Part shown: positions 11,894 to 26,272 of the stretch, one piece after another
How positions within the stretch are numbered: position 1 is the first letter of the stretch
Layout of the letters: every line of letters starts with the position of its first letter
Assembly (NCBI GenBank): GCA_032372955.1
Contig: GCA_032372955.1_4725.1
Reading direction: 5' to 3' (one strand)
Length of the DNA stretch: 64,000 bases
From: Escherichia coli
GTDB taxonomy: Bacteria; Pseudomonadota; Gammaproteobacteria; Enterobacterales; Enterobacteriaceae
Notes under the pieces: generated by a model
Told to the model about the DNA's origin: nothing
Seen by the model: the letters and a program-made list of their open reading frames with translations, nothing else
The model's database searches: none
Position numbers and translations under genes: made by a program

Positions 11894-13261
11894 ATGGATT
11901 ACAAACAGACGCCGTTAGGACGGTATATCGGTACATTTGCGCAGGAAGCAGTTGCTGTTGCGTATAAAGTCACCGCGGAATTAATCACGCCGTCAATGAC
12001 GGTGTCTGTTCCTTTAGTGACTCAAGTCCACACGTATCGAGACTATGAACGTAACGCAGGAGATGAACTTTATATCTCTGTAAAGTTCCCGCCTGGCAGT
12101 TACGGAAAATACATCTTACCGTACCAACAACAACTTAAAATGCGTATCATCGTGCAGGCATACAGCCTGATGCGTGGACAACGCCAAACCGTAGACGATG
12201 CCGCACAAGCTTACGTCTACCGAGCGGTTTGTTTAACAACCGTAGACAGTCGTATGTCTGCTACCGACGAACGTACCGCAACAGATTCTTCGAAGAAAGA
12301 CTACGAACAAATGGTCGATCTTCAATTTCAACTGTTCGATCCTGTTCTTGAAAGCTTCATGCAATCAGAAACCGGTGAAAACTATACTGGGTCGAAAGTG
12401 TTGGATGTGTTGCGCCTTGAATTCAGCAAGATACTTTCTGCGGTTGAAGCCGACACCGGATTCAAAATGCAGGGCGTGGACATTGTTGCGCCGAATAACG
12501 ACAATCTGTTCAAGTTGCTTATTCTTCCGCACGGTACCAACGCAATGGATCTCGTAGACAAAATCCAGAACCAGGTCGGTATTTATTCAGCGGACGTAGG
12601 TTGTTATTATCAATCCCCGTATCTGTATATTTATCCTCTCTACGACGAAACCCGTTTCTCTGACGGTCGTCGCACGGCTATCTTTTACAACTACCCTGCC
12701 GATATGTTTCCAGGCATGGACAAGACCTGGATCAATCGTGACAAATACGTGGAAATTGCATGTACGAGAGGGGCGTCGGTAAGCGACATCAATAACGCGG
12801 CTTCGTTGTTAGGTAATGCGGGTGGGCGTTTTGTTTCGGCAAGTCAGATGAGTCAGGGAATGACATTATCAAAAGGAGGCGATACGATAATCAGTCGTAC
12901 TGTAAACGTTAGCGAGTACGTAACTGAAGAACGTAGCGATAACGTGAAGGTGGCGAAAGGGATGGGACGCGTAACCGATAACCGATGGCGTGAATTAAGT
13001 AATACTGCTGGATTACGCGGCAGGACAATGCAGTTGGTGTGGGAATACGCAAACATGGATATGTTGTATCCCGGCATGCCTGCTAAAGTTGTGTGGATGC
13101 AGGATAACAATCTCTGCGAAGCATACGGGGTTATCATGCGTACCGATTGTGCTGTTACGATGGCAGGTTCTTCTGTACGTGAACCACAGTGGACATGCCA
13201 TGGTACGGTCACGTTATGGCTTGCACCAGAAAAAGACAACACCGTTCGTCCAACCGTTTAA
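11894..13261 (+). CDS. hypothetical protein
   Basis: 455-aa ORF beginning 2 nt after the previous stop. Confidence 0.65.
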   Translation: MDYKQTPLGRYIGTFAQEAVAVAYKVTAELITPSMTVSVPLVTQVHTYRDYERNAGDELYISVKFPPGSYGKYILPYQQQLKMRIIVQAYSLMRGQRQTVDDAAQAYVYRAVCLTTVDSRMSATDERTATDSSKKDYEQMVDLQFQLFDPVLESFMQSETGENYTGSKVLDVLRLEFSKILSAVEADTGFKMQGVDIVAPNNDNLFKLLILPHGTNAMDLVDKIQNQVGIYSADVGCYYQSPYLYIYPLYDETRFSDGRRTAIFYNYPADMFPGMDKTWINRDKYVEIACTRGASVSDINNAASLLGNAGGRFVSASQMSQGMTLSKGGDTIISRTVNVSEYVTEERSDNVKVAKGMGRVTDNRWRELSNTAGLRGRTMQLVWEYANMDMLYPGMPAKVVWMQDNNLCEAYGVIMRTDCAVTMAGSSVREPQWTCHGTVTLWLAPEKDNTVRPTV

Positions 13262-13265
13262 TATT

Positions 13266-13297
13266 CCCTCTCCCTTCCCTTACGGGTTGGGAGAGGG
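13266..13297 (+). terminator. conserved CCTCC-armed hairpin element followed by CTTATGCTG
   Basis: CCCTCTCCC-TT-CCC-TTAC-GGG-TT-GGGAGAGGG. Confidence 0.5.
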
Positions 13298-13340
13298 CTT
13301 ATGCTGTCTTATTTCGCATTACTCCAGTTTATTTCGCGAC

Positions 13341-13356
13341 TACATTACCTAGGTGA
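13341..13356 (+). promoter_or_regulatory. conserved promoter-like motif TACATTACCTAGGTGA (copy A)
   Basis: Identical 16-mer recurs at 19821; related copies at 48000 and 60503; all intergenic, upstream of + strand genes. Confidence 0.45.
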
Positions 13357-13558
13357 TAAGAGCGGTTACTGTTGTCGCTGTAAATTTCTCTTAATAATCG
13401 AGGATACAGTCATGGCCTTATTAATACGCGACCCGTCAGCATACGAAAACACGCGTTATAACCATAACCAGTTCGGCAATAATTTCTAACAAAGAACGAT
13501 CAATCTATGCATTGATTCTTCTATCCGCAATCCACCTAACATAGAAAGGTAAAATACG

Positions 13559-14128
13559 ATGTTTAATCCAGAAATCATGATTCTTGATCCTTGGTACCTC
13601 AACAAACTTCCAGGAATCAAAATGCCAGGCGATCCTCACGCATTCGATTTGATGGTCGTTGCCGAAGTTACCAGCAATACGGTTAACACCATCGACGATG
13701 ATGAGGTTCCTGTTGAAGAGGTGTTCTCTGTTACGACGACATTACTGGAAAGTCGAGAGCTGACCGAAAACGGCAGCGCCGATGAAATCATTCCTATCGA
13801 TGGTGAGATGGAGATCATGTTAACACAGGTCGAGTTGCACCATCGTGTCGCACCAACAAAAGACACGCCTTATGACAATGAACCTGCAGAACAACCTGAT
13901 GAAAACGGTCGAGTGAAACTTGCTGACATCGACGACGATGCTCTTGAAGATATCGACGAAAACGAAGAAACGAACTTCTACCAAGCTGAAGCGAAAGAAG
14001 CGTTTGATAAAGCGGTTCAGCATGATCGACGTATCACCGAGAAGATGATCCAACAACAACTTATCGGTAAACGTCTTAAGCTCGAATTCGCAAGCGGGGT
14101 GCTTACTACCTGGTCACTCATCGTCTAA
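13559..14128 (+). CDS. highly acidic hypothetical protein
   Basis: 189-aa ORF, AAAGG RBS; large D/E excess; sits downstream of promoter-like motif at 13341. Confidence 0.6.
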   Translation: MFNPEIMILDPWYLNKLPGIKMPGDPHAFDLMVVAEVTSNTVNTIDDDEVPVEEVFSVTTTLLESRELTENGSADEIIPIDGEMEIMLTQVELHHRVAPTKDTPYDNEPAEQPDENGRVKLADIDDDALEDIDENEETNFYQAEAKEAFDKAVQHDRRITEKMIQQQLIGKRLKLEFASGVLTTWSLIV

Positions 14129-14197
14129 AACCGAAACAACGTTTTCATTTCCAATCACATACTCAACAATCTAAATCCAATTAAGAGGACAACATTT

Positions 14198-14599
14198 ATG
14201 TTTAATATTCTTAGTGTACCGCGTTCCCCTGTCAGTTCTTACTTCGGTATTATGACCAGTAAAGAACACAACGTGGAATATACTGTTATCGCTAAAGATC
14301 CATCACCGATCAACGTAACGTTTGCTGAAGGTACTACCGAACTCGTTCCGTTAAATGGTGAATTCAGTAAACCTGTTAACGGCGTCTACGAACTTATCAC
14401 TCGCGATCCGAATAACAACGCGACCTACCGTGTGGTGTGTGCGTTCAACAATAACAAATTGGTTATTGTTGCGGATAGCCGTGGGTTATCGTGGATGGCT
14501 GAGGAAGGCACACATCGTTACTACGAAGAATGCTTACGAACCGCAGGCATCTACGATCTGGTAATGGACGCCCGTGCTAAAAACGACCGGATGTTTTAA
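14198..14599 (+). CDS. hypothetical protein
   Basis: 133-aa ORF with AAGAGGA RBS. Confidence 0.55.
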   Translation: MFNILSVPRSPVSSYFGIMTSKEHNVEYTVIAKDPSPINVTFAEGTTELVPLNGEFSKPVNGVYELITRDPNNNATYRVVCAFNNNKLVIVADSRGLSWMAEEGTHRYYEECLRTAGIYDLVMDARAKNDRMF

Positions 14600-14605
14600 A
14601 TTATC

Positions 14606-14932
14606 ATGATTACTCGAGAAATCATTTACGACGCTATTATCGAATGCCGCCATCGCGTCATGCGTGGAACGGTGTATAACTACCACTTAAACAACATTAT
14701 CAGTGAATGTACGGCGGTGATGACTAGCGCGCTGGGTAAACCTAGCGCTATCGCACTCTATCCAAACATCACTGAACAGGAGCAAATCAATATCGAAAAC
14801 CAACGTCGAGTGAATCGCCAATACGATGTAACAGCCATGCACGCATGGCTTATCGTTGCAGCGAAACTCAACACGCTTCTCACTGAGAACGGCTGGAAAT
14901 TTTCACCTAATGAATTCATGACAATAAGTTAA
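14606..14932 (+). CDS. hypothetical protein
   Basis: 108-aa ORF 6 nt after the previous stop; no clear RBS. Confidence 0.45.
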   Translation: MITREIIYDAIIECRHRVMRGTVYNYHLNNIISECTAVMTSALGKPSAIALYPNITEQEQINIENQRRVNRQYDVTAMHAWLIVAAKLNTLLTENGWKFSPNEFMTIS

Positions 14933-14947
14933 TCAAAGCGGTCATAA

Positions 14948-15002
14948 CCCCTCCTCCTTCCCTTACGGGTTGGAGGAGGGAACCGCACAATCTTTTTTTT
15001 TT
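14948..15002. terminator. conserved hairpin element plus T-run between convergent genes
   Basis: CCCCTCCTCC-TT-CCC-TTAC-GGG-TT-GGAGGAGGG then 10 T at 14993-15002. Confidence 0.6.
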
Positions 15003-15006
15003 GCGT

Positions 15007-16617
15007 TTAAAATTCTAAATCAAATTGTAATTCATTACTCGGTGCTGCGTTTTCATCGAACTTGTTCCACGGACCTTTACCTCCCTCGGAGACAGGTTGT
15101 CCGCCAACCTTGCGGCAATATACTGCTTTCTTACCGTAATCATCAGGAAGCATCCCGATGGTTTGGAATGGCATCGCGAAATGTTTGTCTTCAGGTTTCG
15201 TTGAACCGTTATCCGGTTGACGGTCTTTCCCTAATGCAAAGACCTGCCAGCTTTGACGTTTGCCGGGTTCCTTAACGATATCAACAATCACTTCAAGGTC
15301 AATCTCGCGGTCAATCCCTTTACAACCATCCCAGTAACTTAAACCTGCGACCTGGTCAACGAACTCTTCATCGTTACCATCACGTGCACGCATCTTCGCA
15401 TCGGATGACAGCTGGTGTACGGTCATGCCTAAAATACGTTTAACGCTGCAGAGGTTACGGACTTTGTTAAAGAGTTCTTGGAGCCATGCGCCGGTCGGCC
15501 CATTTCTATCCAGCCCTTCCGATGAGAACATTTTCAGATAGTCAATGAACAACGCCATGACTTCATAACCCATGCGTTCGAAATGGTCGATGAGATTAGC
15601 GAGTTGTTTATAACTCATCCCATCAACACGACGCATACAAACAGAGAAACCCGCATCATTGAACACCTTCAACACATAACGTGATGCCTCGCGAGGGTCA
15701 ATCTTACGAATATCGACATATTCGCCCGTTTCCTGTTCTCGCATGTTCTTGTATATTTGAAGCGTGTTTTCTTCCACTTCGTTTTCTGTCGACAAATGAA
15801 TCAGTAATGCTTTCTTTGCTCGCTCCGGAAAAAAGAAATGGGGTTTATTGTACAGTGCCAGATGCGTGAACAGTTTTAACAACACACCTGACTTGTTCCG
15901 GTGCTGCATCGCACCAATCAGTCCTAAGGTACCGCGACGTAAAACACCGACCGACCCCAACATTTTATTAAAACCTTGCCAGCCGGTTACAAACCCACCT
16001 TCAGGACTGTTACGTTCCATCGCTTTGACGAACATACGTTCAACTTTCTCGATATCGTCTTCACTGTCAGCGATAAAGCCGTCAATCATACACGACATCT
16101 CTTCGGGATTTTCGGTATCCATTTCGATACTGTCTAGCGATAATTTCAAATTCGCCATCGCATCGAAAAATTCTTTATCCCCAAGTCGCCCGTTACTGAT
16201 ATCCATGTACGTGTTTCTAAAGGTTTCGAAAACACGACGACGGGTAATCAGATTACGTAATTCGTTGTAATAGAGTGAACAGACCTTACTGATATGAGCG
16301 TCGTCTTCGATATCGTACAGTCCGTCGGCGAGAATCTCGTAAAGATTGCTTTGCTCAAGGCAATCTAAACGTATCCTTTGTAACAACTGTTGTTTATCGA
16401 AAGGTTCCGATAATGGTTGTTCCAACATCCAATGAATGGTATTCATCAGGTTGTTGAAAACCTCTCTATCTACGTCTGTAGCGAGATGGTTTTTCGGGGG
16501 TTCGACTTTATCTAAGACGGATTTAACATGTTCGATCGTACTGGGATCGGGATGGTTCAATTGTGCATTACGAAACAGTAACGTAATAATCTTAATGGCT
16601 ATCTGTTTTGGGTCCAT
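15007..16617 (-). CDS. DnaB-family replicative helicase-like protein
   Basis: Start chosen at MDPKQ (AAAGGA RBS). RecA-like C-terminal domain: Walker B FIDYLKMF, HQLSS (cf. DnaB SQLNR), DGCKGIDREIDLEVIV (cf. ESGxIEQDADxV); P-loop looks degenerate (GAMQHRNKSG). Confidence 0.55.
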   Translation of the reverse strand: MDPKQIAIKIITLLFRNAQLNHPDPSTIEHVKSVLDKVEPPKNHLATDVDREVFNNLMNTIHWMLEQPLSEPFDKQQLLQRIRLDCLEQSNLYEILADGLYDIEDDAHISKVCSLYYNELRNLITRRRVFETFRNTYMDISNGRLGDKEFFDAMANLKLSLDSIEMDTENPEEMSCMIDGFIADSEDDIEKVERMFVKAMERNSPEGGFVTGWQGFNKMLGSVGVLRRGTLGLIGAMQHRNKSGVLLKLFTHLALYNKPHFFFPERAKKALLIHLSTENEVEENTLQIYKNMREQETGEYVDIRKIDPREASRYVLKVFNDAGFSVCMRRVDGMSYKQLANLIDHFERMGYEVMALFIDYLKMFSSEGLDRNGPTGAWLQELFNKVRNLCSVKRILGMTVHQLSSDAKMRARDGNDEEFVDQVAGLSYWDGCKGIDREIDLEVIVDIVKEPGKRQSWQVFALGKDRQPDNGSTKPEDKHFAMPFQTIGMLPDDYGKKAVYCRKVGGQPVSEGGKGPWNKFDENAAPSNELQFDLEF

Positions 16618-16656
16618 CGACTCAATCCTTTCGATACTTGCAAAGAGGTAATCATA

Positions 16657-17277
16657 ATGAAGGAACTCCGATATCTCGTCGTTCCGAATTGGGTAGAACA
16701 CGCGATTATTCGAAATGCGCGTGATGACTTACAGGTGTTATTAGATCCTAAAAGTCTTTTCGGCATACTATCGCCCAATGATGTAGGTTTTTATTTCGCA
16801 GCCCAGAACGTGCCTTTCTTCATCACGAAAGAACACGAACAAGCGAACCCTGCGGTTCATCTTAACAACCTGCTTGGTGGTATGTTTGCGTATCACTATG
16901 ACGAAACAGGTTTGCCGCCAGAGAAGAATGTTGATGTGCTGTGTGAGTACATCAATCGTTATGACAATGGTTATTACCATTTACTGACGAGCTATCCGCG
17001 TGATATTGAACGTCGTTTGGCGGATCCAACTTACAGCCCAGACAAACGTCCGTTGAGTGTTCGGGTGCGTTATGTTAATGAGGATGTGATCGCGATTGTT
17101 GTCGATTGTCTTCCTTTATTGGCAGAAGAGTTATTGAGCGATCGTATTGCTGATAACTACAGCGCCGTTATTGAACACCTGCGAATTAATATGAGTCTTG
17201 CGGAAGTTGCGCAATTGCCGCTGTTCCGTTCATATTGCACCAATCGTTCCATCCATTATCGCCTGCGTCGTTTGTGA
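16657..17277 (+). CDS. hypothetical protein
   Basis: 206-aa ORF, AGAGG RBS; divergent from the helicase gene across a 39-bp gap. Confidence 0.55.
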   Translation: MKELRYLVVPNWVEHAIIRNARDDLQVLLDPKSLFGILSPNDVGFYFAAQNVPFFITKEHEQANPAVHLNNLLGGMFAYHYDETGLPPEKNVDVLCEYINRYDNGYYHLLTSYPRDIERRLADPTYSPDKRPLSVRVRYVNEDVIAIVVDCLPLLAEELLSDRIADNYSAVIEHLRINMSLAEVAQLPLFRSYCTNRSIHYRLRRL

Positions 17278-17426
17278 CGTAGGGAAAAGTTATGCGGCAT
17301 TTTTAGTGTTGTATCACGACCTCAATAACGGTAAGTGTTTACTGATACTATAGTGGCGCATGCACGCGTGTACGCTATGGTCTATCGACCGACTTATATA
17401 AGTTAATTCTGTAAAGGATACTTTCA

Positions 17427-19649
17427 ATGAATGATAAAACCCTTCTTAGCCAACAGGTCGCGGCCACTCGCCAGTTCCTGACCGCTAATGGTAGCAAACC
17501 AGCAGACAAAGGTCTGGAGAACACCTTCCTGTCTATGGAATCTGCTTCTAAGGTTGATTTCAAATCCATGGACAAACTGGTTAACGAAATGGATGTTAAG
17601 AGCTTCAGCAGCGACATCCGTAAAGCAGAAGAACCGGTTCTGTCCATGCTGGGCTTCGAAACCACCACTCCGGAAGAGAAGCAGCGTATTGAAGAACAGC
17701 TGTTCACCATGAACGCACAGCAGGCTCGTGCAGCAGCACTGATCATGCTGGCTCATGGCAACCCGGTGGAATATGCTAAACAAGCACGTTCCATGAACAT
17801 CAGCACCACTCCGTCTGGCCGTGAAGTTGACAGCTCTAACTTCGTCATGATGGCCGCCGATTCCTGCGGTTGCGAATCTGAAGAACTGGTTCAGCTGTCC
17901 TACGACCAGAAAGAACTGCGTGACATGATGCCGTACTCCGTTGTGTTCAACGTGAAGGCTTCTCGTCTGAGCCGCATGGGTAACGAACTGTACAACACCA
18001 TCGTTCTGGCTCCGAACCAGATCGGTTACGACGTATCTTTCCGTCGTCCGCTGGTGTTCAACCACCTGCGTCGTAACGCTGACGGTACTCCGGCTGATTG
18101 GGTACGTCGTCCGCTGCTGGATGCGTTCATGTACAACGACGTTCTGTCCAACGACGTGACCGATCTGCATCCGATCTATCGTGCTGACGATGCTAACGCG
18201 CAGTACTTCGTTGACAAAACTATCGTTGCTCCGCGTGACATCGAAATTAAAGGCGTAACTTACAAAACGTCTTACCTGGCCGTTGATAAACTGATCGACA
18301 TGATCGGTATTGCTGAAGACGATAGCATCCTGGCTAACGGTTACAGCGACAACACCGACGCGCTGGACGCTCAGATCACGCTGACCAAAATCCTGGTGGA
18401 AATCAAATCCACCAAACACAGCAAAACCTCTTACGTACCGTTCGACGTATCTGGTCTGATCACCAACGGTTTCCAGAAATCCCTGGAAGGCGACTTCCGC
18501 AAAATGACCCTGGCGTTCGACACCCACTCCATCTTCGTTGATGAGAACACCGTTGACGTTAAAGGTGCACGAGCTGAAGCGCTGCAGGACATCATCGATT
18601 CGAAATCCGCTGCTCAGCTGGCAATCGAAGTTTACGGTTCTTCCAACGTAGAGAAAGCCGGTCTGCGTGTTAACGGCGCTAACGCTGAACTGTATCGTCT
18701 GGTCGATCGTGACAACATCGAACAACCGCGTAAGGGCGAAGAGTTCAAACAGCTGGCTGAAGACCTGAGCTTCAAACTGGTTGGTTACGAACTGCGTATC
18801 CGCCGTAACAACAGCAACCGTCGTGAGCGTGGTAAGCACCTTGACTTCAACATGAAGCAAGAACGTTACGCAATCGGCCTGCTGGCTCCGTTCTCCATTC
18901 CTCGTCCGCTGGATTGGGAAGAAAACGCTGCTGACCTGGACGTTCTGATCCAAGCTGCTAACGCACGTTTCGACAACCTGATGGTTGAGAAACTGTTCAG
19001 CTACAAAGACGCACTGAAAGCGGTTGCGACCTCTCGCTTCCGTCAGTTCGGCGACATCCAGATCGAAGGTTTCGGTCGTTACCTGATCCGTCCGTGGTTC
19101 GAAGAAATCAATCTGGACCTGGAGAAATCTGTTCAGGGTACCACCACTGCAGAACGTCGTGCTGAAGTGTCCGCTGCGATCATGAACGTGATTCGTGAGA
19201 TGGCATACCGCATGTACTCCGAGTCTGGTTATCAGCCAGCTCTGCAGCTGCTGTCTTCCAACGCTGATGAGAAACCGCGTTGCGTAGTAGCAACTGACAA
19301 CTACATCCCGCAGTTCCTGCAGACCGATGGCGATTTCCGTACCGTTGGTGTGAGCTTCAACTTCGTGGTTGTAGATAACCCGAACGTCATGCTGCGCGAT
19401 AAGATCTTCGTGACCCTGTCTCGTGGTATCCAGGGTTCTCCGGATCCGCTGACCTTCGGTATGTTCCTGTATGTACCGGAACTGGTATCTGTTGCTCAGG
19501 TTACCCGTAACGGTCAGGTTTCTAAAGAAACCATGGTTCAGCCGCGCTGCCGCTTCGTTAACAACTGCCCGCTGCTGGGTCTGATTAACGTTGTGAACCT
19601 GCGTAAGGTCTACACTGAAAACATCAAGCTGCCTGTTCAGACTAACTGA
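17427..19649 (+). CDS. abundant virion structural protein, probable major capsid protein
   Basis: 740-aa ORF, AAAGGA RBS. Extreme bias to high-expression codons (ctg, cgt, ggt, aac, ttc), unlike neighbours; size fits jumbo-phage capsid proteins. Identity not verified. Confidence 0.55.
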   Translation: MNDKTLLSQQVAATRQFLTANGSKPADKGLENTFLSMESASKVDFKSMDKLVNEMDVKSFSSDIRKAEEPVLSMLGFETTTPEEKQRIEEQLFTMNAQQARAAALIMLAHGNPVEYAKQARSMNISTTPSGREVDSSNFVMMAADSCGCESEELVQLSYDQKELRDMMPYSVVFNVKASRLSRMGNELYNTIVLAPNQIGYDVSFRRPLVFNHLRRNADGTPADWVRRPLLDAFMYNDVLSNDVTDLHPIYRADDANAQYFVDKTIVAPRDIEIKGVTYKTSYLAVDKLIDMIGIAEDDSILANGYSDNTDALDAQITLTKILVEIKSTKHSKTSYVPFDVSGLITNGFQKSLEGDFRKMTLAFDTHSIFVDENTVDVKGARAEALQDIIDSKSAAQLAIEVYGSSNVEKAGLRVNGANAELYRLVDRDNIEQPRKGEEFKQLAEDLSFKLVGYELRIRRNNSNRRERGKHLDFNMKQERYAIGLLAPFSIPRPLDWEENAADLDVLIQAANARFDNLMVEKLFSYKDALKAVATSRFRQFGDIQIEGFGRYLIRPWFEEINLDLEKSVQGTTTAERRAEVSAAIMNVIREMAYRMYSESGYQPALQLLSSNADEKPRCVVATDNYIPQFLQTDGDFRTVGVSFNFVVVDNPNVMLRDKIFVTLSRGIQGSPDPLTFGMFLYVPELVSVAQVTRNGQVSKETMVQPRCRFVNNCPLLGLINVVNLRKVYTENIKLPVQTN

Positions 19650-19736
19650 ACTACCGTAGCTGCTTCGTTGGACGATATTCTTGACGACAACGTTGCGGAT
19701 GGTTTCATTGCACCGGACATTCATCCGGCACCGTGA
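19650..19736 (+). other. in-frame 28-codon open extension after the capsid TGA stop
   Basis: No stop from 19650 to TGA at 19734-19736, same frame as capsid ORF; encodes TTVAASLDDILDDNVADGFIAPDIHPAP. Confidence 0.4.
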
Positions 19737-19748
19737 TACATAAGTCAG

Positions 19749-19778
19749 CCTCCCTCAGCCCGTAAGGGTTGGGGGAGG
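19749..19778 (+). terminator. conserved hairpin element variant followed by TTTCTATG
   Basis: CCTCCC-TCAG-CCC-GTAA-GGG-TTGG-GGGAGG, downstream of the capsid gene and its extension. Confidence 0.5.
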
Positions 19779-19820
19779 TTTCTATGCCGTTTACGTTGTG
19801 AATAGAAAAAATTTGACGCT

Positions 19821-19836
19821 TACATTACCTAGGTGA
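19821..19836 (+). promoter_or_regulatory. conserved promoter-like motif TACATTACCTAGGTGA (copy B)
   Basis: Exact repeat of copy A, ~150 nt upstream of the 19986 gene. Confidence 0.45.
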
Positions 19837-19985
19837 CAGACGCCTGCGATGAATAAGGCATAGACAACACGTAAGGTCGTTCTCGCGCTAGGAACGATGC
19901 TGAAACCGTCGGCTGTCGGCTCGATAAGAACAAGAAAAGGGAAATGCGTTATGCGTGATAGTTTTCAATCAGATGGAGGTTGACG

Positions 19986-21422
19986 ATGCCCTCCATGCCA
20001 ATATGTGATACCGCGTTCGAACCGTGGGATGGTACGCACGCTTATCGCATTGACGGTTATGCTGAACCGTTATATGACCTGGAATTAGGATGGGCATGTA
20101 TTAATGAATCTGGCCATACCGTGTTGGTGATCACCTCCGACAATATGTTCCAGTACATTCCTGGTAGGGTTGAGGACGGCAATACATTCAGGATCGTACG
20201 ACGTTCAAAATTTCGTAGTCCTGTAATAGTTGACAGCCATGACGTATCTAATGCGAATGGTGCATTCAGAAACTTCGTCTACGCGGGTAGACGTCGGGAT
20301 ATACTCCGTGTTAAAAACGGCACAGGTTACGCGATAAGGAAACCGCATATCCGTCGTATTGTTAACACAGAGAAAATGCCGCGTCTACTAGACCAGCAAG
20401 ACTGGTACGATACGCTGGATGAAATATGTCAAATTGACCTCAACACGTTGAACTTTAATCAACCCGCATATGTCGCGCAAATCAACGTGGCAATCGTAAA
20501 AGTTAAAGGAGAATACAAAAGCGCAGACCACGTTACGAAAGGGATTGATCACCCCTACATCGCAACGTGCGCGCGGAGCTTGACGGGAAAAACAGAGGGT
20601 TTCCGAATTCTCGGAACGCAACTCACTATCCATTGGACGCCACCCGACTTTCATAATCCGTATAGCTTATGGGTTAACGTGTTAGGGAAAGCGTTCGAAA
20701 TAAAACCAACGAATGGAGCAGGCGCGCCAGGTATGTTGGTTACCTTCGGGAATAATGACTCCATCTTCGTACCGGTCGAAGATTTGGAAAAAGAGATGTG
20801 GAAGTACAATGTTTTTCCGACACGTGAATCGGCATTGCATTGGCGCGACCCCGTCCAAAAAGAAGCCTACAAAAATGATTTCGACCAACGTAGCTACGAA
20901 CGTAAGGCATCGGAAGAAACCCTTAAAGGGGTGATGGCTGAAATGCGACGTATGGCGGATGAACACAAGGCAGTTATCGCACAGATGCATGAGGCGCATC
21001 GCGCCGACGCAAAGCTGCGCGATGAACAACATAAAGCCGAACTCGATCAGCTTAAAGACGAACAAAAACGTAGGATGGAACAACACCAAGCCGAAATGAA
21101 ACGTCAAGATGATCTACGTAAACAAATACACGAAGATTATCAAGCTGATTTAAAACGTCGTGATGATGAGGCTAAACGCAAACATGAAGAATTCGTCGCT
21201 GAACTTCGTCGTCGAGATGAAGAATCCAAACGTAAGCACGACGAGTTTGCTGCTGAGATACGCCGACGTGATGAAGAGGCAAAAAGACAACGTGAAGCGG
21301 AAGAAGCGCGACGTCAACGTAACGTCGATGTTTGGAAAGCCGCTGCGAGTATAACTGCGGCCGTTGTCGGTATAGGTATGACCTTTTTCAAGATTCTTGA
21401 GAAGGCGTCATCGAAAAAGTAA
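19986..21422 (+). CDS. hypothetical protein with charged helical repeats and C-terminal transmembrane anchor
   Basis: Start chosen at ATG 19986 (GGAGG RBS). C-terminal ~130 aa is E/R/K-rich with tandem RRRDEEAKRKHEEF repeats, then hydrophobic AAASITAAVVGIGMTFF. Confidence 0.65.
   Translation: MPSMPICDTAFEPWDGTHAYRIDGYAEPLYDLELGWACINESGHTVLVITSDNMFQYIPGRVEDGNTFRIVRRSKFRSPVIVDSHDVSNANGAFRNFVYAGRRRDILRVKNGTGYAIRKPHIRRIVNTEKMPRLLDQQDWYDTLDEICQIDLNTLNFNQPAYVAQINVAIVKVKGEYKSADHVTKGIDHPYIATCARSLTGKTEGFRILGTQLTIHWTPPDFHNPYSLWVNVLGKAFEIKPTNGAGAPGMLVTFGNNDSIFVPVEDLEKEMWKYNVFPTRESALHWRDPVQKEAYKNDFDQRSYERKASEETLKGVMAEMRRMADEHKAVIAQMHEAHRADAKLRDEQHKAELDQLKDEQKRRMEQHQAEMKRQDDLRKQIHEDYQADLKRRDDEAKRKHEEFVAELRRRDEESKRKHDEFAAEIRRRDEEAKRQREAEEARRQRNVDVWKAAASITAAVVGIGMTFFKILEKASSKK
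21153..21314 (+). repeat. tandem ~54-nt (18-aa) coding repeats
   Basis: KRRDDEAKRKHEEFVAEL / RRRDEESKRKHDEFAAEI / RRRDEEAKRQREAEEARR read directly from the translation. Confidence 0.6.
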
Positions 21423-21461
21423 CTTTAATCTGCTTAAGCAACTTTCTGAAAGGAGTGTGTG

Positions 21462-23258
21462 ATGGATCCTAGATTCTGCAAAGCTGTCGCTGAGCTTGCA
21501 CCGAAGATGAACGAGAAGATAGCACGCAACATCGTCGTCGATAAGATGCAAGATGTTGAGTCCTATGTTGATCGTCTTTGGCGGAACAGCAAAGATAGTT
21601 TACCTAAGGATCTGGTGTATCATGGCCTGCGTCGCTGCATGGCCCGCGAACAGTTCCACTACTTAAGCGGAGGAAAGAAAACCAAAGGGAAGGATAGCGG
21701 TAAGCTGACCTTCGACCTTGCGCCTTCCGATGTGTTTATGGTGATGCTGGAATTCCGCTGGTACGGCGCAATGGAATCAGGTGACCGTCGTGAACCAGGA
21801 AAGGACTACTGCATTATCCGACACCCTCTCCTATTGCCCGCGGTAGGTCAGGGTGGTAAAATGCGTCTACGTGGTGCGAACTTCATTCTCAGTGCGGTGC
21901 TCGCTGACCCTGTAATCAGTTACACGAAAGACATGGCGTTCATCATGCTTCCGCGTGACAAAATCACGGTTAAACGTACACCGTATCAGTTCCTGAGCAA
22001 TGATACACCGACCGGTATCGATTATCGTCATTACCTATCATTACCCTGGTCGCAAATCTATCATCTTACCAAACAAAGTAAAGTGAACGGTGACAACATC
22101 AACCACACCAGCGTAACCACACTGGGTCACTATCTCTTTGCGAAGTATGGGGTGGGTGAGTGTTTCCGACGTTTTGCAGGCGTCGAAGCCGTAACCGGAC
22201 GGAACCTTGCTGAACGTGATTTTCCGCGCGACCAATGGGTAATCTATCGCACCATGGGGGTTATTCCTAAAGGCTTTAGTATCAGCAAAAGCGGTAAAAG
22301 CCGTAGCGCTAGCGCTGTACGTTACAAGCATCCTGATATTCAAATTGCCGTAAGACGTGGAGGCACGGAACGTATTGTTCTTGGCCTTGTCGGCGCATTC
22401 TTGTATCTCATCGACCGTTATTACGATCGTTTTCCGGAAGACTATCCGGTTGAAGAGTTCGCGAATGCGCCAGACCATTGGCGTACATTACTCGGTTTGA
22501 TTATCTTTAATAACAACAATGCAGATGCGCGTTTGTTGCGTGATGTAAACCACCACATCGACAGTCTCGATCTTTACGTTGACGAGATTCAGCAGAAGAA
22601 GTTCAAACAGGAAAATATTCCTTGCGATGACTTCTACGAATTTATGGCGTATCTGATTGACAATGTTACTATCGAAATGAGTCGTGTTGATACCACGACG
22701 ATGTTCGGTAAGGAATTGATGGTGTTGGAATATGTCATGGAGGATGTGCGTAAGAGCATCTTTAAACTGGGGTTCCATCTTAAAACCACAGAACGTGGTA
22801 AACGACAGAACAACCGTAAAGAGATGACCAATCGCGATGTACAGAAGGCGTTGCGAAATCAAGTTGCGACGGAAGCGATTCTCAATATCCAGAGCAATCG
22901 TGATAAGCGTGAGAAAGTGGCAACATCGATTCAGTCACCTGGTGATTGCATGCTGTTCAAAGTGAGCACGCATGTTGTTCTCCAGAGCCAAAATGCAGGC
23001 GGTGCTGCATTGGCTGACGAGAGTCGTTTGGTTAGTGGTTCCATCCCGTTCTGTGCAAGCTATCTGAATCTTCCACACTCCGAACCAACCGGACGTCAGA
23101 AGTTCAGTATGTACGCACCTATCGACGAACGTGGTCGGTTAATCATTACCCCACAAATTGCAAATGACGTTGCAGCAACCAATGCAGGCTTGAAGAAAGA
23201 CGTCGGTCGATTCGATGAAGAAATTGTAGAAATTAACGATCACGACATAATCGATTGA
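21462..23258 (+). CDS. hypothetical protein
   Basis: Start chosen at ATG 21462 (AAAGGAG RBS, 6-nt spacer); 598 aa. Confidence 0.65.
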   Translation: MDPRFCKAVAELAPKMNEKIARNIVVDKMQDVESYVDRLWRNSKDSLPKDLVYHGLRRCMAREQFHYLSGGKKTKGKDSGKLTFDLAPSDVFMVMLEFRWYGAMESGDRREPGKDYCIIRHPLLLPAVGQGGKMRLRGANFILSAVLADPVISYTKDMAFIMLPRDKITVKRTPYQFLSNDTPTGIDYRHYLSLPWSQIYHLTKQSKVNGDNINHTSVTTLGHYLFAKYGVGECFRRFAGVEAVTGRNLAERDFPRDQWVIYRTMGVIPKGFSISKSGKSRSASAVRYKHPDIQIAVRRGGTERIVLGLVGAFLYLIDRYYDRFPEDYPVEEFANAPDHWRTLLGLIIFNNNNADARLLRDVNHHIDSLDLYVDEIQQKKFKQENIPCDDFYEFMAYLIDNVTIEMSRVDTTTMFGKELMVLEYVMEDVRKSIFKLGFHLKTTERGKRQNNRKEMTNRDVQKALRNQVATEAILNIQSNRDKREKVATSIQSPGDCMLFKVSTHVVLQSQNAGGAALADESRLVSGSIPFCASYLNLPHSEPTGRQKFSMYAPIDERGRLIITPQIANDVAATNAGLKKDVGRFDEEIVEINDHDIID

Positions 23259-23292
23259 CACATAACCGAATAAATAAAAAGGATCGTAAGAA

Positions 23293-25851
23293 ATGTATAA
23301 TGGCAGTAACAACATGTATCAACAAATGGGCTATAGCGAAAACCCTTATACGAGCACGGTTAATTATGCGGCTGAACAGGTTCGTCAGCAACAGTATCAG
23401 CAATCACCGTACGGCGCATATCCGAATAACGCCTATCAACCACCACAATACCAACAACCCTCATATCAGCAGAACTATAACTTCATCACCCAAGAAGCAA
23501 CGATCGTCAAAATCCGTCAAGCTATCTTTAATGTCCTGAAAGACTTCGCTCAGCAAGACAAAATACAAACCGAGTTCGTCGCACGTTATACCAATAACGA
23601 TATGATGATGGAATCGCTTGTTGAAGACTGTTGTTGGAACGTGTTCTCTTACATCAACCCGATGCCGCAGAACGCGTCCGACGACCAGATCGTCTCTGCT
23701 GCCGTGAGCACAGTTGCGCTGTATCATCTTGTAACGTGGCTCTTTGAACCGAATCAGTACCCGGAATATTATCGCGCGATTGAATTATCACGCATTAACC
23801 CGGAAGCCGCGAATAAGTACACGCAGCTGAATAAAAGCGGGAGCCTGGCACAAATCGCGCAGAAGTCACGTGGTTTGAAGCAGCAGGTGATGCAGATGGG
23901 GATGACTTATCGTGGCCCGCAAGCAAGCGCGATGGTTAGTGGCGGGTACGGTCAACCACAACAGCCAGCGTACGCCATGTATGGTGGAACCTATCCGCAA
24001 CCGCAATACCAGCCTAATCCGGCAGTTATGCGTGGTATGGCTCCAACAACGCCAGGATACGGCGCACAACCTCGGCCGACGGTTGTTCAACCACAAGCGC
24101 CATCGTACATCGATTCGAAGGATTGTGCGTTCAACCGTTTGTATGATGTTGGTGATGACGATCCTATCGTTGATGATGCACCTGCTGCTACAGCGCCGCG
24201 TTACGAGGCACCACAACCACGGATTTACTCGACAAATCCTGAAGGAGATATTGGTGGTATCAACGATATCTTTGCAGCGGCTGAACAGTTTGCTGAACAG
24301 TACGAAGAGCCAGAATGGCATGTTAAGGCTGGGCAGCAGAAACCCGTTCAACCTGAACCTGCGCAGGTGAAACCGGAACCCGTTCGTACGGCTCGTTCTG
24401 CTACGGTAACAAAGACCGTTAATCCAATTGATGCGACCGAAGATGCTAAGCGTTACGGTCGTGTTGTTCAACATGAAGAATTTATGCAGATGCGTCTGAA
24501 AGCCAAAGACTTTGCACCTAATAGTCGTTGGCCGACGTTGTATGACTTCAGACACTTCGCTCGTCGGGCACGTATCGACGAAAACGGAATTCTTCATGAA
24601 ACCATTGTTGACATTACATCCCTCACGGAGGAAGAAGTGGAATACATCGAACTTGAATCAGATCCAACCGCTCGTCGTATGGCAGAGCAGGAAATGGCAA
24701 AACTGGATCGTATCGCGCAAGCAGAAGTTGTTCGTGTTAGCCTTAACAAACCGGTTCAGCGTGAGCCAATCGTTGTCGGTGAGCAGCGCGAAATGAAACT
24801 GTTTACCGTCACCGACGCGATCGCAGCGTCAAGCGTTGAGGATGCTGAAACCAAAGCTGCGGTAGCGATCATCCAGCAGACCAACACCGACGTCAACCAA
24901 AACGACGCATTAGCATTCCTGGCTACCGTCAATTCCTATCTGGGAACCTATACCGACAAAGAGCTAGATGCAATCCATGAATTCCTGGATGCGTTGTCTA
25001 TTGATAAGGGTCGTAGCGACGATATCAAAGCTTATCGTCAGATCATGCAACAGTATCGTGATGTCATTCCTCTGCGTATTTGGCATTTCCTGAACGATAG
25101 CATGACCAAAGACGTTAACAAGCTGATCAAACGTATCGTACCGAAGAACTTCTCTGAAACCACCATCTCTAGCTTCGTTGATGATATCGGAGAACTGTCC
25201 GGTTGGCTGATTCACGATCTTAAAATGGACCAGAAGTTCATTGAAGATGAATTCTCCAATTGCTACTACACCTGGGTCAACATGCTGAAGTGTCTCTACT
25301 GCAATCGCGATGGCGAAGGTCAGTGGAACATTCGTCTTTCCATGGCTGAACTGTACAACATGCATGACTACCTGAAAGCCGCTCACGAAAAATCTGCAGC
25401 GAATCGTGAACGTCATCTGGTTGCCATGAGTGAGTATCGTGCAGAACTGGAGAAAGATGGCTCTCTGGATGCTGACGAAATCGAACGTCGTTTGGCGGAT
25501 GCGGCTATCGAGGATATGCGTGTTAATCCAGACATCGTTACCGACGAAGATAGCAACGATGCTTACTGGTTCAATCACAGCGTATTCGCGATGCGTCCGC
25601 ATGTTGTTGTTCGCGTACCGACCAACGCCAAGATTCTGAAGCTGAACCAGAGCGGTTACACTCACGCATCGGCTGCAACCAACCCAAGCATTGCTCGTAT
25701 GCTGGATCAGGTGTTCAAGACCTTCGAAACCAAAGTAAAAGGTCTGCAATCTGTTACTGTAATTCTGAGCGATGATACTCGTCTGAAAGCAGTACGTACG
25801 GTAAACGGTATTACCGCTTCCGAGTATCTGCTGGAACGTGAAGAGCAGTAA
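23293..25851 (+). CDS. hypothetical protein with Q/Y/P/G-rich low-complexity regions
   Basis: 852-aa ORF, AAAGGA RBS; N-terminal ~65 aa and residues ~190-270 are Q/Y/P/N/G-rich. Confidence 0.7.
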   Translation: MYNGSNNMYQQMGYSENPYTSTVNYAAEQVRQQQYQQSPYGAYPNNAYQPPQYQQPSYQQNYNFITQEATIVKIRQAIFNVLKDFAQQDKIQTEFVARYTNNDMMMESLVEDCCWNVFSYINPMPQNASDDQIVSAAVSTVALYHLVTWLFEPNQYPEYYRAIELSRINPEAANKYTQLNKSGSLAQIAQKSRGLKQQVMQMGMTYRGPQASAMVSGGYGQPQQPAYAMYGGTYPQPQYQPNPAVMRGMAPTTPGYGAQPRPTVVQPQAPSYIDSKDCAFNRLYDVGDDDPIVDDAPAATAPRYEAPQPRIYSTNPEGDIGGINDIFAAAEQFAEQYEEPEWHVKAGQQKPVQPEPAQVKPEPVRTARSATVTKTVNPIDATEDAKRYGRVVQHEEFMQMRLKAKDFAPNSRWPTLYDFRHFARRARIDENGILHETIVDITSLTEEEVEYIELESDPTARRMAEQEMAKLDRIAQAEVVRVSLNKPVQREPIVVGEQREMKLFTVTDAIAASSVEDAETKAAVAIIQQTNTDVNQNDALAFLATVNSYLGTYTDKELDAIHEFLDALSIDKGRSDDIKAYRQIMQQYRDVIPLRIWHFLNDSMTKDVNKLIKRIVPKNFSETTISSFVDDIGELSGWLIHDLKMDQKFIEDEFSNCYYTWVNMLKCLYCNRDGEGQWNIRLSMAELYNMHDYLKAAHEKSAANRERHLVAMSEYRAELEKDGSLDADEIERRLADAAIEDMRVNPDIVTDEDSNDAYWFNHSVFAMRPHVVVRVPTNAKILKLNQSGYTHASAATNPSIARMLDQVFKTFETKVKGLQSVTVILSDDTRLKAVRTVNGITASEYLLEREEQ

Positions 25852-25871
25852 TTAACTTATCGTCCGACGGC

Positions 25872-25893
25872 GGGTATTGTATTTGCAATACCC
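25872..25893 (+). terminator. intergenic hairpin
   Basis: GGGTATTG-tatttg-CAATACCC after the 852-aa gene; no T tract. Confidence 0.35.
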
Positions 25894-25912
25894 TAGTTGA
25901 TAAGGAAACCGT

Positions 25913-26185
25913 ATGAGTCAATATAAACTCATTACCGTCTCTGTGGATGCAAAGGACTTACGCGAAATTACGTTAGCAGCCAACGCAGTTCAACAGGACA
26001 GTGAACTGACGGCATATGAACGTTACCAGCTTTTCCTCTCGATAAGCGACACGGTAGCACGTATGCAACAGAAGTACCAGGTTCAGCTAACCGTAATCGA
26101 CAAAGGCGCTGTGATCCCACCACACCCTAGTTGGCGCGTACTGAGAAGCAAACTCACCACAATTGAATCGTGGTTAACCTCGTAA
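25913..26185 (+). CDS. hypothetical protein
   Basis: 90-aa ORF with AAGGAAA RBS. Confidence 0.5.
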   Translation: MSQYKLITVSVDAKDLREITLAANAVQQDSELTAYERYQLFLSISDTVARMQQKYQVQLTVIDKGAVIPPHPSWRVLRSKLTTIESWLTS

Positions 26186-26205
26186 TAAATTAAATAGCGC
26201 ATAGC

Positions 26206-26264
26206 CCTTCTCCCCTTCCCTCATCGGGTTGGGGAGAAGGTTAACTATGTGTTATTTTTTTTTT
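26206..26264. terminator. conserved hairpin element plus T-run between convergent genes
   Basis: CCTTCTCCCC-TT-CCC-TCATC-GGG-TT-GGGGAGAAGG, TTAACTATG, then 10 T at 26255-26264. Confidence 0.6.
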
Positions 26265-26272
26265 ACGTCCGT

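What the first reader, a model, noticed from the sequence alone, without database searches (positions are those of the whole stretch)
15007..16617. DnaB-family helicase-like protein with an apparently degenerate P-loop
Walker B and the downstream DnaB motifs are recognisable, but the position of the Walker A loop reads GAMQHRNKSG rather than GxxxxGK[ST]. The protein may be a divergent active helicase or an inactive helicase-like loader or regulator.
Basis: partly seen in the sequence, partly recalled or inferred. Interest (0 to 1): 0.5.

Follow-up and report, generated by a model that had tools for sequence, protein, structure and literature searches.

The report
Jumbo-phage DnaB helicase, conserved odd P-loop
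This gene is the replicative DNA helicase of a Goslar-like nucleus-forming jumbo phage of E. coli. Its unusual ATP-binding loop is a conserved, already described trademark of that phage family's helicase, not a sign of decay.

Summary
The minus-strand gene 15007-16617 (536 aa) reads G235-AMQHRNKS-G244 where DnaB has ARPSMGKT, and the protein has no canonical [AG]xxxxGK[ST] anywhere. "Degenerate" is the wrong word, though. Profile alignments to solved DnaBs and to E. coli DnaB show the same loop length and a single deviating position: Asn241 replaces the Gly just before the Walker Lys.

Among 170 family sequences that position is Tyr, Phe, Asn or Trp in 159 and Gly in 4. Lys242, Ser/Thr243, the catalytic Glu278 and the Walker B Asp359 are 170/170. 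The sensor Gln402 and the Arg finger Arg466 are near-invariant. dN/dS against phage Goslar is about 0.02.

The window is 97.7% identical to Escherichia phage Goslar, and the gene is gp043, "DnaB-like replicative helicase". It matches Pfam PF20307 "Divergent DnaB-like ATPase" at 1.6e-120. The 50 best solved-structure matches listed for the AlphaFold model are all DnaB-family helicases.

Iyer et al. 2021 already described this divergent DnaB of phiKZ-like phages, with a modified ATP-binding motif and an inferred active enzyme. The best reading is an active hexameric replicative helicase with a derived P-loop. No ATPase or helicase assay and no solved structure was found. Already known; modest residual interest.

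The parts
15007..16617 (-). Complete CDS (536 aa plus stop) of the divergent DnaB-like replicative helicase, orthologue of Goslar gp043 (YP_009820728.1).
   Evidence: ORF list. 97.7% nt and 99.6% aa identity to Goslar. Goslar annotation. Pfam PF20307 E 1.6e-120. PHROG 3213 E 1.4e-122.
16108..16617 (-). N-terminal all-helical domain (residues 1-170): a globular helical part followed by a long helical hairpin, H106-141 and H147-169. It resembles the DnaB N-terminal collar domain.
15118..16005 (-). RecA-like ATPase core (about residues 205-500) of the DnaB C-terminal domain.
   Evidence: AF2 full-length model. The 50 best Foldseek PDB matches listed are all DnaB-family helicases, E 7e-14 to 8e-10. 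hmmsearch of the family profile against PDB. hhalign against E. coli DnaB.
15889..15912 (-). Walker A / motif H1, A236-M-Q-H-R-N241-K242-S243. Asn241 stands where DnaB has the Gly before Lys. Lys and Ser are retained.
   Evidence: Aligned to ARPGMGKT / ARPSVGKT / ARPSMGKT of Aquifex, Geobacillus and E. coli DnaB. Family counts at position 241: Y72, F63, N17, W7, G4, H4. K242 170/170, S/T243 170/170, H239 148/170. No indel in the loop.
15784..15786 (-). Glu278 in S-T-E-N (motif H1a), aligned to the catalytic Glu of DnaB's SLEM.
   Evidence: Invariant, 170/170. Aligned to SLEM.
15535..15549 (-). Walker B / motif H2, F-I-D359-Y-L, aligned to DnaB IDYLQL.
   Evidence: D359 170/170, Y360 169/170. 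Alignments.
15406..15417 (-). Motif H3, H-Q402-L-S, aligned to DnaB SQLS/SQLN (the sensor Gln).
   Evidence: Q402 in 167 of 168 ungapped sequences. Alignments.
15220..15228 (-). K464-D-R466, aligned to DnaB GKQRNG (Lys and the arginine finger acting on the neighbouring subunit's site).
   Evidence: K464 166/168 and R466 166/168. hhalign against E. coli DnaB.
15010..15117 (-). Predicted disordered C-terminal tail (residues 501-536): a Gly-rich linker, then an aromatic and acidic motif (GPWNKFDEN...QFDLEF).
   Evidence: pLDDT below 50 for residues 501-536. 110 of 170 family members have an aromatic pair in the last 25 residues.

Best explanation
The gene encodes the replicative helicase of a Goslar-like chimallivirus (a nucleus-forming jumbo phage). 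It is a two-domain DnaB-family (superfamily 4, RecA-fold) protein. By homology it should assemble into a hexameric ring, bind NTP at subunit interfaces, hydrolyse it using Lys242/Ser243 (Walker A), Glu278 (catalytic base), Asp359 (Walker B), Gln402 (sensor) and Arg466 supplied in trans, and translocate on single-stranded DNA to open the fork for the phage's split family-B polymerase inside the phage nucleus. Its P-loop is a derived form fixed across the whole family: A-L-Q-H-x-[Y/F/N/W]-K-[S/T]-G. A bulky or Asn residue replaces the otherwise near-universal Gly before the Lys, and a conserved His sits three residues before it. Shown here: family membership, the exact register of the loop, and conservation of all catalytic residues. 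Inferred: hexamer formation, NTPase and helicase activity, and the role in the replisome.
For: The window is 97.7% identical to phage Goslar, where the gene is annotated as DnaB-like replicative helicase gp043. Pfam PF20307 'Divergent DnaB-like ATPase' matches at E 1.6e-120; PHROG 3213 and the general DnaB PHROG 19 (E 4e-11) also match. The family profile finds Aquifex and Geobacillus DnaB in PDB (E 5e-6 to 4e-5) with H1, H1a, H2 and H3 in register. hhalign against E. coli DnaB gives E 3.7e-6 and also aligns H4 and the Arg finger. 7 of 23 relatives also hit Pfam DnaB_C. The 50 best Foldseek matches listed for the AF2 model are all DnaB, T4 gp41 or SPP1 G40P, over about 450-530 aligned columns. 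In 170 sequences K242, S/T243, E278 and D359 are 100% conserved, and Q402, K464 and R466 are at least 98% conserved. The loop has no indel. Against Goslar there are 36 synonymous and 2 non-synonymous codon changes, dN/dS about 0.02. The family is large: 656 representative clusters at E <= 1e-30. tblastn finds it in 282 phage records, mostly phiKZ-like phages. Synteny with the major capsid gene is kept in phiKZ. Literature: Iyer et al. 2021 (PMC7824862) name the divergent DnaB a defining gene of group-1 jumbo phages and infer activity from the intact Mg site. Prichard et al. 2023 (PMC10299810) list the replicative helicase among the conserved proteins used for their chimallivirus trees and place the RAY orthologue gp315 inside the phage nucleus. 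Basu et al. 2026 (PMC13648687) list it as the DnaB-like replicative helicase in the chimallivirus repertoire of predicted replication proteins. Kozlova et al. 2022 (PMC9599734) treat the Walker A Lys, the Ser/Thr after it and the Walker B Asp as the key catalytic elements of P-loop NTPases.
Against: I found no ATPase or helicase assay and no solved structure for any member (PDB sequence search). A Tyr, Phe or Asn at the Gly-before-Lys position is very unusual for RecA-fold ATPases (my own knowledge), and how such a loop wraps the phosphates is unknown. The protein itself gave no Pfam DnaB_C match at E <= 1. The N-terminal domain's similarity to the DnaB collar is only weakly significant. No primase or helicase loader has been identified in these phages, so how it is loaded and primed is open.
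Confidence: 0.85

Rival explanations
1. Inactive pseudo-helicase: the protein keeps the DnaB fold but has lost NTP hydrolysis, and acts as a loader, scaffold or regulator of replication.
For: The Gly preceding the Walker Lys is replaced in 166 of 170 family members. The protein gave no Pfam DnaB_C match at E <= 1. No biochemical activity has been reported.
Against: Residues that matter only for catalysis are invariant or near-invariant across sequences sharing 22-35% identity with this protein: the catalytic Glu278, the trans Arg466 and the sensor Gln402, together with Lys242, Ser/Thr243 and Asp359. The modified loop is itself strongly conserved rather than drifting. dN/dS is about 0.02. The chimallivirus replication repertoire described in the one abstract read names no other replicative helicase.
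Confidence: 0.07
2. Active motor with a re-engineered nucleotide site: the aromatic or Asn residue before the Lys and His239 change the nucleotide-binding geometry, the NTP preference or the regulation. For example, basal hydrolysis could be low until a partner or DNA binds. The enzyme would then not work exactly like DnaB.
For: The derived motif A-L-Q-H-N-[YF]-K-[ST]-G is conserved as a unit (H239 148/170; position 241 is Y, F, W or N in 159/170). Conservation of the variant implies it was selected rather than merely tolerated. Iyer et al. link the helicase's divergence to that of its partner polymerase.
Against: No data of any kind on nucleotide specificity. Loop length and flanking secondary structure match DnaB. 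Four members have reverted to, or retained, Gly with no other obvious change, which suggests the position is not mechanistically decisive.
Confidence: 0.25
3. A different RecA-superfamily ATPase (a T7 gp4-like primase-helicase, a RadA/KaiC-like protein or a recombinase) mis-named as DnaB.
For: All of these share the RecA core, so weak similarity is expected. The protein's sequence identity to DnaB is only 10-15% in the structural alignments.
Against: The 50 best fold matches listed are all DnaB-family proteins, and the alignments span about 450-530 columns. The DnaB-specific motif wording (DYL, HQLS, E-x-D, K-x-R) aligns in order. hhalign against T7 gp4 is not significant (probability 0.4%, E 0.16). 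No primase or zinc-finger domain was found.
Confidence: 0.03

Closest known systems
Pfam PF20307 divDNAB: the 'divergent DnaB' of phiKZ-like (group 1) jumbo phages / Chimalliviridae (Iyer et al. 2021). Examples: Goslar gp043, phiKZ NP_803684.2, Erwinia phage RAY gp315.
   Same: Full-length match (402 bits). 99.6% aa identity to Goslar gp043. It has the same derived P-loop, the same catalytic residues, the same position next to the major capsid gene, and a divergent family-B polymerase annotated nearby in Goslar (gp039).
   Different: Essentially nothing. Within the family the Goslar clade uses Asn rather than the commoner Tyr or Phe before the Lys (17 of 170), has KDR instead of KHR at the Arg finger, a 7-residue insertion in the linker, and a longer acidic C-terminal tail.
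Bacterial DnaB and phage DnaB-type helicases (E. coli, Geobacillus and Aquifex DnaB; T4 gp41; SPP1 G40P), superfamily 4.
   Same: Two-domain architecture: a helical N-terminal domain, a linker and a RecA-like C-terminal domain. Motifs H1a, H2, H3, H4 and the Arg finger are in the same order. The Walker A has the same length, with Ala, Lys and Ser/Thr retained. The best fold matches are all from this group.
   Different: The Gly before the Walker Lys is replaced (Asn here, Tyr or Phe in most relatives) and His stands at K-3. Identity is only 10-15%. There is no Pfam DnaB_C hit for this protein. The N-terminal domain is only weakly similar. No partner primase or loader has been identified in these phages.
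T7 gp4 primase-helicase
   Same: A RecA-fold hexameric replicative helicase of a phage. An acidic and aromatic C-terminal tail is present in both (the gp4 tail is from my own knowledge).
   Different: There is no primase domain, and profile-sequence alignment is not significant. The motif wording follows DnaB, not gp4.

Membership tests
Pfam PF20307 divDNAB (divergent DnaB of phiKZ-like jumbo phages) | Score above the curated gathering threshold over the full model | tested here: met
   402.5 bits against a cut-off of 26, model positions 3-355 of 356. All 23 aligned homologues match.
Pfam PF20307 divDNAB (divergent DnaB of phiKZ-like jumbo phages) | Modified ATP-binding loop combined with an intact Mg2+/Walker B site (Iyer et al. 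2021) | tested here: met
   The loop is AMQHRNKS with Asn at the Gly position, and D359 is invariant. Paper text; it prints 'Walker B' for the modified motif, which my data suggest is a slip for Walker A.
Pfam PF20307 divDNAB (divergent DnaB of phiKZ-like jumbo phages) | Encoded in a chimallivirus / phiKZ-like genome, in the conserved block with the major capsid protein | tested here: met
   The window is a Goslar relative. The order helicase, 206-aa protein, 740-aa capsid protein matches Goslar gp043-041 and phiKZ p43-119-120. Core block 5 described in Prichard 2023.
DnaB family (superfamily 4 replicative helicases) | Canonical Walker A [AG]xxxxGK[ST] (motif H1) | tested here: not met
   A236, K242 and S243 are present and the loop length is identical, but Gly is replaced by Asn241. 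No canonical motif occurs elsewhere in the protein.
DnaB family (superfamily 4 replicative helicases) | Motifs H1a (catalytic Glu), H2 (Walker B, DYLQ), H3 (SQLS sensor Gln), H4 and the Arg finger, in order | tested here: met
   E278, D359-Y360-L361, H401-Q402-L403-S404, D436..D440-x-E442 and K464-x-R466 align to the corresponding DnaB motifs. They are conserved in at least 98% of 170 sequences for the key residues.
DnaB family (superfamily 4 replicative helicases) | Match to Pfam DnaB_C (PF03796) above threshold | tested here: not met
   No hit at E <= 1 for this protein. 7 of 23 relatives hit at E <= 0.01, best 2.9e-7.
DnaB family (superfamily 4 replicative helicases) | RecA-like C-terminal domain with the DnaB fold | tested here: met
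   Foldseek against PDB: the 50 best matches listed are all DnaB, gp41 or G40P, E 7e-14 to 8e-10, probability 1.00.
DnaB family (superfamily 4 replicative helicases) | N-terminal helical collar domain with a helical hairpin, plus a linker helix | tested here: inconclusive
DnaB family (superfamily 4 replicative helicases) | Hexameric ring, DNA-stimulated NTPase, 5'-3' unwinding | not testable with these tools
   Needs purified protein. No published assay found.
T7 gp4-type primase-helicase | Fused primase (zinc-binding plus TOPRIM) domain and gp4-type helicase motifs | tested here: not met
   hhalign of the family profile against T7 gp4A: probability 0.4%, E 0.16. No primase domain in Pfam.

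The most novel reading that the evidence does not exclude
The family-wide replacement of the P-loop glycine by Tyr, Phe, Trp or Asn, together with the conserved His three residues before the Lys, defines a different way of gripping the nucleotide in a RecA-fold motor. That could mean a changed NTP preference or a built-in brake released by a partner or by DNA. It may have co-evolved with the split family-B polymerase and the primase-less, loader-less replisome of nucleus-forming phages.
Probability: 0.2. Interest if true: 0.55.

Novelty: already known. Interest (0 to 1): 0.22.

Why it matters
The gene is the predicted fork-opening motor of nucleus-forming jumbo phages. Their replisome is only now being worked out: a split polymerase with a clamp-derived subunit was reported in 2026, and no primase or loader is known. 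That this helicase has a non-canonical ATP-binding loop is already recorded in Pfam and in Iyer et al. 2021, so the finding adds no new class. What remains untested is how a RecA-fold P-loop works with a bulky residue where glycine is otherwise near-universal. A structure plus point mutants would answer that, and would be of moderate interest to helicase and P-loop enzymologists. For annotation the practical message is that a missing GxxxxGK[ST] should not be read as inactivation in this family.

Tried and rejected
- Single-sequence phmmer against PDB sequences found no helicase. A family profile was needed.
- NCBIfam has no model for the protein.
DnaB does.
- I searched the sequence for an alternative intact Walker A: none in this protein, and one in only 5 of 170 relatives.
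- The longer ORF from the GTG at 16701 was rejected. It would overlap the divergent gene starting at 16657, and no homologue extends upstream of the Met.
- Literature searches for ATPase, helicase, structure or essentiality data on the chimallivirus DnaB-like protein found none. The passages on helicases in the phiKZ ASO screen list other helicases only, and the TnSeq main text has no entry under gp117/gp118 or DnaB.
- The sigma-70 promoter and terminator scan around the gene gave no more than the shuffled expectation. These phages use their own RNA polymerases.
- Pfam scans of nine neighbouring proteins gave no hits.

Full report
**What is there**

A 536-aa ORF lies on the minus strand at 15007-16617. 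The mechanical ORF list extends it to a GTG at 16701. All 22 homologues, however, begin at the Met of MDPKQ/MDxKLL, and an AAGGA lies 8 nt upstream of that ATG. The extension would also overlap the divergently transcribed gene starting at 16657. The string GAMQHRNKSG is residues 235-244, window 15886-15915.

**Where the window comes from**

Megablast of the gene finds Escherichia phage vB_EcoM_Goslar at 97.7% identity over 100% of the length. The protein is 99.6% identical. In the RefSeq record the orthologue is gp043, 'DnaB-like replicative helicase'. It sits opposite a 206-aa protein and the 740-aa major head protein, with 'polymerase' gp039 a few kb away. The window has the same order, and phiKZ keeps helicase, head protein gp119 and major capsid gp120 together.

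**Family**

- Pfam gives PF20307 'Divergent DnaB-like ATPase' at 1.6e-120, 402 bits against a cut-off of 26.
- PHROGs gives phrog_3213 at 1.4e-122 and the general DnaB family phrog_19 at 4e-11.
- A profile of 23 sequences finds 1608 cluster representatives at E <= 1e-3 and 656 at E <= 1e-30 in 1.84 billion proteins.
- tblastn finds the protein in 282 phage records: Pseudomonas, Erwinia, Salmonella, Vibrio, Serratia, Aeromonas, Klebsiella and Ralstonia phages, including phiKZ, 201phi2-1, RAY, RSL2 and OBP.

**Placing the P-loop**

- The single sequence finds no helicase in PDB. The family profile finds Aquifex aeolicus DnaB (4nmn, E 4.8e-6) and Geobacillus DnaBs (2vye, 2r6a). It aligns 'vigALqhnfKsGf' to 'ILAARPGMGKTAF' and 'IVAARPSVGKTAF'.
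- In the Aquifex alignment 'slEn' also aligns to 'SLEM'. In all three, 'iDYLkml' aligns to 'VDYLQLL' or 'IDYLQLI', and 'TpHQLS' to 'ALAQLS' or 'ALSQLS'.
- hhalign of the profile against E. coli DnaB (E 3.7e-6, 255 columns) gives the same register. It adds 'lDQEvDlE' against 'sieqdadl' and 'GKHR' against 'gkqrng'.
- So A236-M-Q-H-R-N241-K242-S243 corresponds to A-R-P-S-M-G-K-T. The loop length is the same, there is no indel in any of 170 sequences, and only the Gly before the Lys differs.
- There is no [AG]xxxxGK[ST] elsewhere in the protein, so the refutation condition is not met.
- T7 gp4 does not align significantly.

**Is the loop decaying or derived?**

I aligned the query with 169 homologues: 150 representatives of 50%-identity clusters plus the hits of the first search.

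| Position | Count |
|---|---|
| 241 (DnaB's Gly) | Tyr 72, Phe 63, Asn 17, Trp 7, Gly 4, His 4 |
| Lys242 | 170/170 |
| Ser/Thr243 | 170/170 |
| Gly244 | 155/170 |
| His239 | 148/170 |
| Ala236 | 152/170 |
| Glu278 (H1a) | 170/170 |
| Asp359 (Walker B) | 170/170 |
| Tyr360 | 169/170 |
| Gln402 | 167/168 |
| Lys464 | 166/168 |
| Arg466 | 166/168 |

The commonest loop strings are ALQHNFKTG, ALQHNFKSG and ALQHNYKTG. The Goslar clade has AMQHRNKSG and phiKZ has GLQHQYKSG. This is a conserved derived motif, not erosion. Every residue that Kozlova et al. 2022 treat as a key catalytic element of P-loop NTPases (Walker A Lys, the Ser/Thr after it, Walker B Asp) is invariant. So are the residues specific to hydrolysis in oligomeric RecA-fold motors: the catalytic Glu, the sensor Gln and the trans Arg.

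Between the window and Goslar there are 39 nucleotide differences, 36 synonymous codon changes and two amino-acid changes (N55S, R134K). That gives dN/dS of about 0.02.

**Structure**

- The AF2 model of the full protein has mean pLDDT 76. The low-confidence regions are the linker 169-180 and the tail 501-536.
- It shows a helical N-terminal region, a long helical hairpin and a RecA-like alpha/beta core.
- Foldseek against PDB lists, as its 50 best matches, only DnaB-family helicases: V. cholerae, Geobacillus, Aquifex, E. coli, T. aquaticus and H. pylori DnaB, T4 gp41 and SPP1 G40P. E-values run from 7e-14 to 8e-10 over about 450-530 aligned columns.
- I therefore rate the collar-domain assignment as plausible but not established.

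**What the literature already says**

[quoted passage not shown] My alignments show that Walker B is intact and Walker A is the modified motif, so the wording looks like a slip.
- Prichard et al. 2023 (PMC10299810) use the replicative helicase as one of six conserved proteins for their chimallivirus phylogenies. They describe a helicase in core block 5 together with the capsid gene, and show that the RAY orthologue gp315 localises inside the phage nucleus.
- Basu et al. [quoted passage not shown]
- I found no ATPase or helicase assay, mutant or solved structure for any member.

**Mechanism**

Shown here:
- membership of the divDNAB family;
- a DnaB-type fold;
- the exact register of the Walker A;
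- conservation of all catalytic residues;
- purifying selection.

Inferred from established knowledge of DnaB, gp41 and G40P:
- a hexameric ring with NTP sites at subunit interfaces;
- Lys242 and Ser243 binding the phosphates and Mg;
- Glu278 activating water;
- Arg466 (with Lys464) from the neighbouring subunit stabilising the transition state;
- sequential hydrolysis driving translocation on the lagging-strand template.

Open question: how a Tyr, Phe or Asn is accommodated where the P-loop normally has Gly, and what the conserved His239 does. From my own knowledge, Asn is the non-Gly residue that most readily adopts Gly-like backbone angles, and archaeal and eukaryotic MCM helicases carry Ala or Ser at the equivalent Walker A position. 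Both are leads, not tests.

**Rivals**

- An inactive pseudo-helicase is unlikely because the catalysis-only residues are invariant (confidence about 0.07).
- An active motor with an altered nucleotide-binding mode or specificity is compatible with everything seen, and is the most novel reading left (about 0.2-0.25).
- Another RecA-superfamily protein mis-named as DnaB is excluded by fold, motif wording and architecture (about 0.03).

**Verdict**

The feature is already known, being a curated Pfam family and described in print. Interest is low to modest. The remaining question is enzymological, not genomic.

Noticed in passing
window 15010-15117 (minus strand), residues 501-536 of the helicase: The C-terminal tail is predicted disordered (pLDDT below 50). 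It has a Gly-rich linker followed by aromatic and acidic residues (GGKGPWNKFDEN...QFDLEF). 110 of 170 family members carry an aromatic pair in their last 25 residues, typically ...GG..E.PFW/PWF/WW. It resembles the acidic, aromatic-ended tails of T7 gp4 and SSBs that dock onto partner proteins (my own knowledge), so it may be a polymerase or SSB docking motif.
   Followed up: partly
window 14949-15003: A GC-rich hairpin (CCCCTCCTCC, a 12-nt loop, GGAGGAGGG) is followed about 12 nt later by a run of ten T. It lies in the 74-bp convergent gap between the upstream plus-strand ORF (ends 14932) and the helicase stop codon (15007). The consensus terminator scan did not call it. It may be a terminator or RNA-stability element for one or both transcripts.
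   Followed up: no
window 17424-19724 (minus strand), opposite 17427-19649 (plus strand): A 766-aa stop-free ORF runs antisense to the whole major capsid gene. It is most likely a by-product of the capsid gene's codon usage rather than a gene. It was not examined further.
   Followed up: no
literature: PMC7824862, section 3.4.1: Iyer et al. [quoted passage not shown] In 170 sequences Walker B (h-h-D-Y-L) is intact and Walker A is the modified motif, so the text probably means Walker A.
   Followed up: yes
window 16063-16113 and 15220-15228 (minus strand): The Goslar-clade helicases carry a 7-residue insertion (about residues 176-183, IDGFIADS) in the low-confidence linker. They also read K-D-R instead of the family's K-H-R at the arginine-finger motif. 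Both are clade-specific variations of unknown meaning.
   Followed up: no
window 11894-29182: nine neighbouring ORFs, including 21459-23258 (Goslar gp039 'polymerase'): None of the nine neighbouring proteins scanned has any Pfam match at E <= 0.001. That includes the orthologue of Goslar's annotated DNA polymerase. It shows how far the chimallivirus replication and structural proteins lie from curated families.
   Followed up: partly
protein cluster P0001 (98% identical to the window protein): The nearest database cluster holds 129 member sequences from public read-archive assemblies. Two further clusters lie at 74% identity, on contigs up to 134 kb. Goslar-like phages are therefore sampled repeatedly in public data, and there is at least one more distant sister lineage with the same AMQHRNKSG loop.
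   Followed up: no
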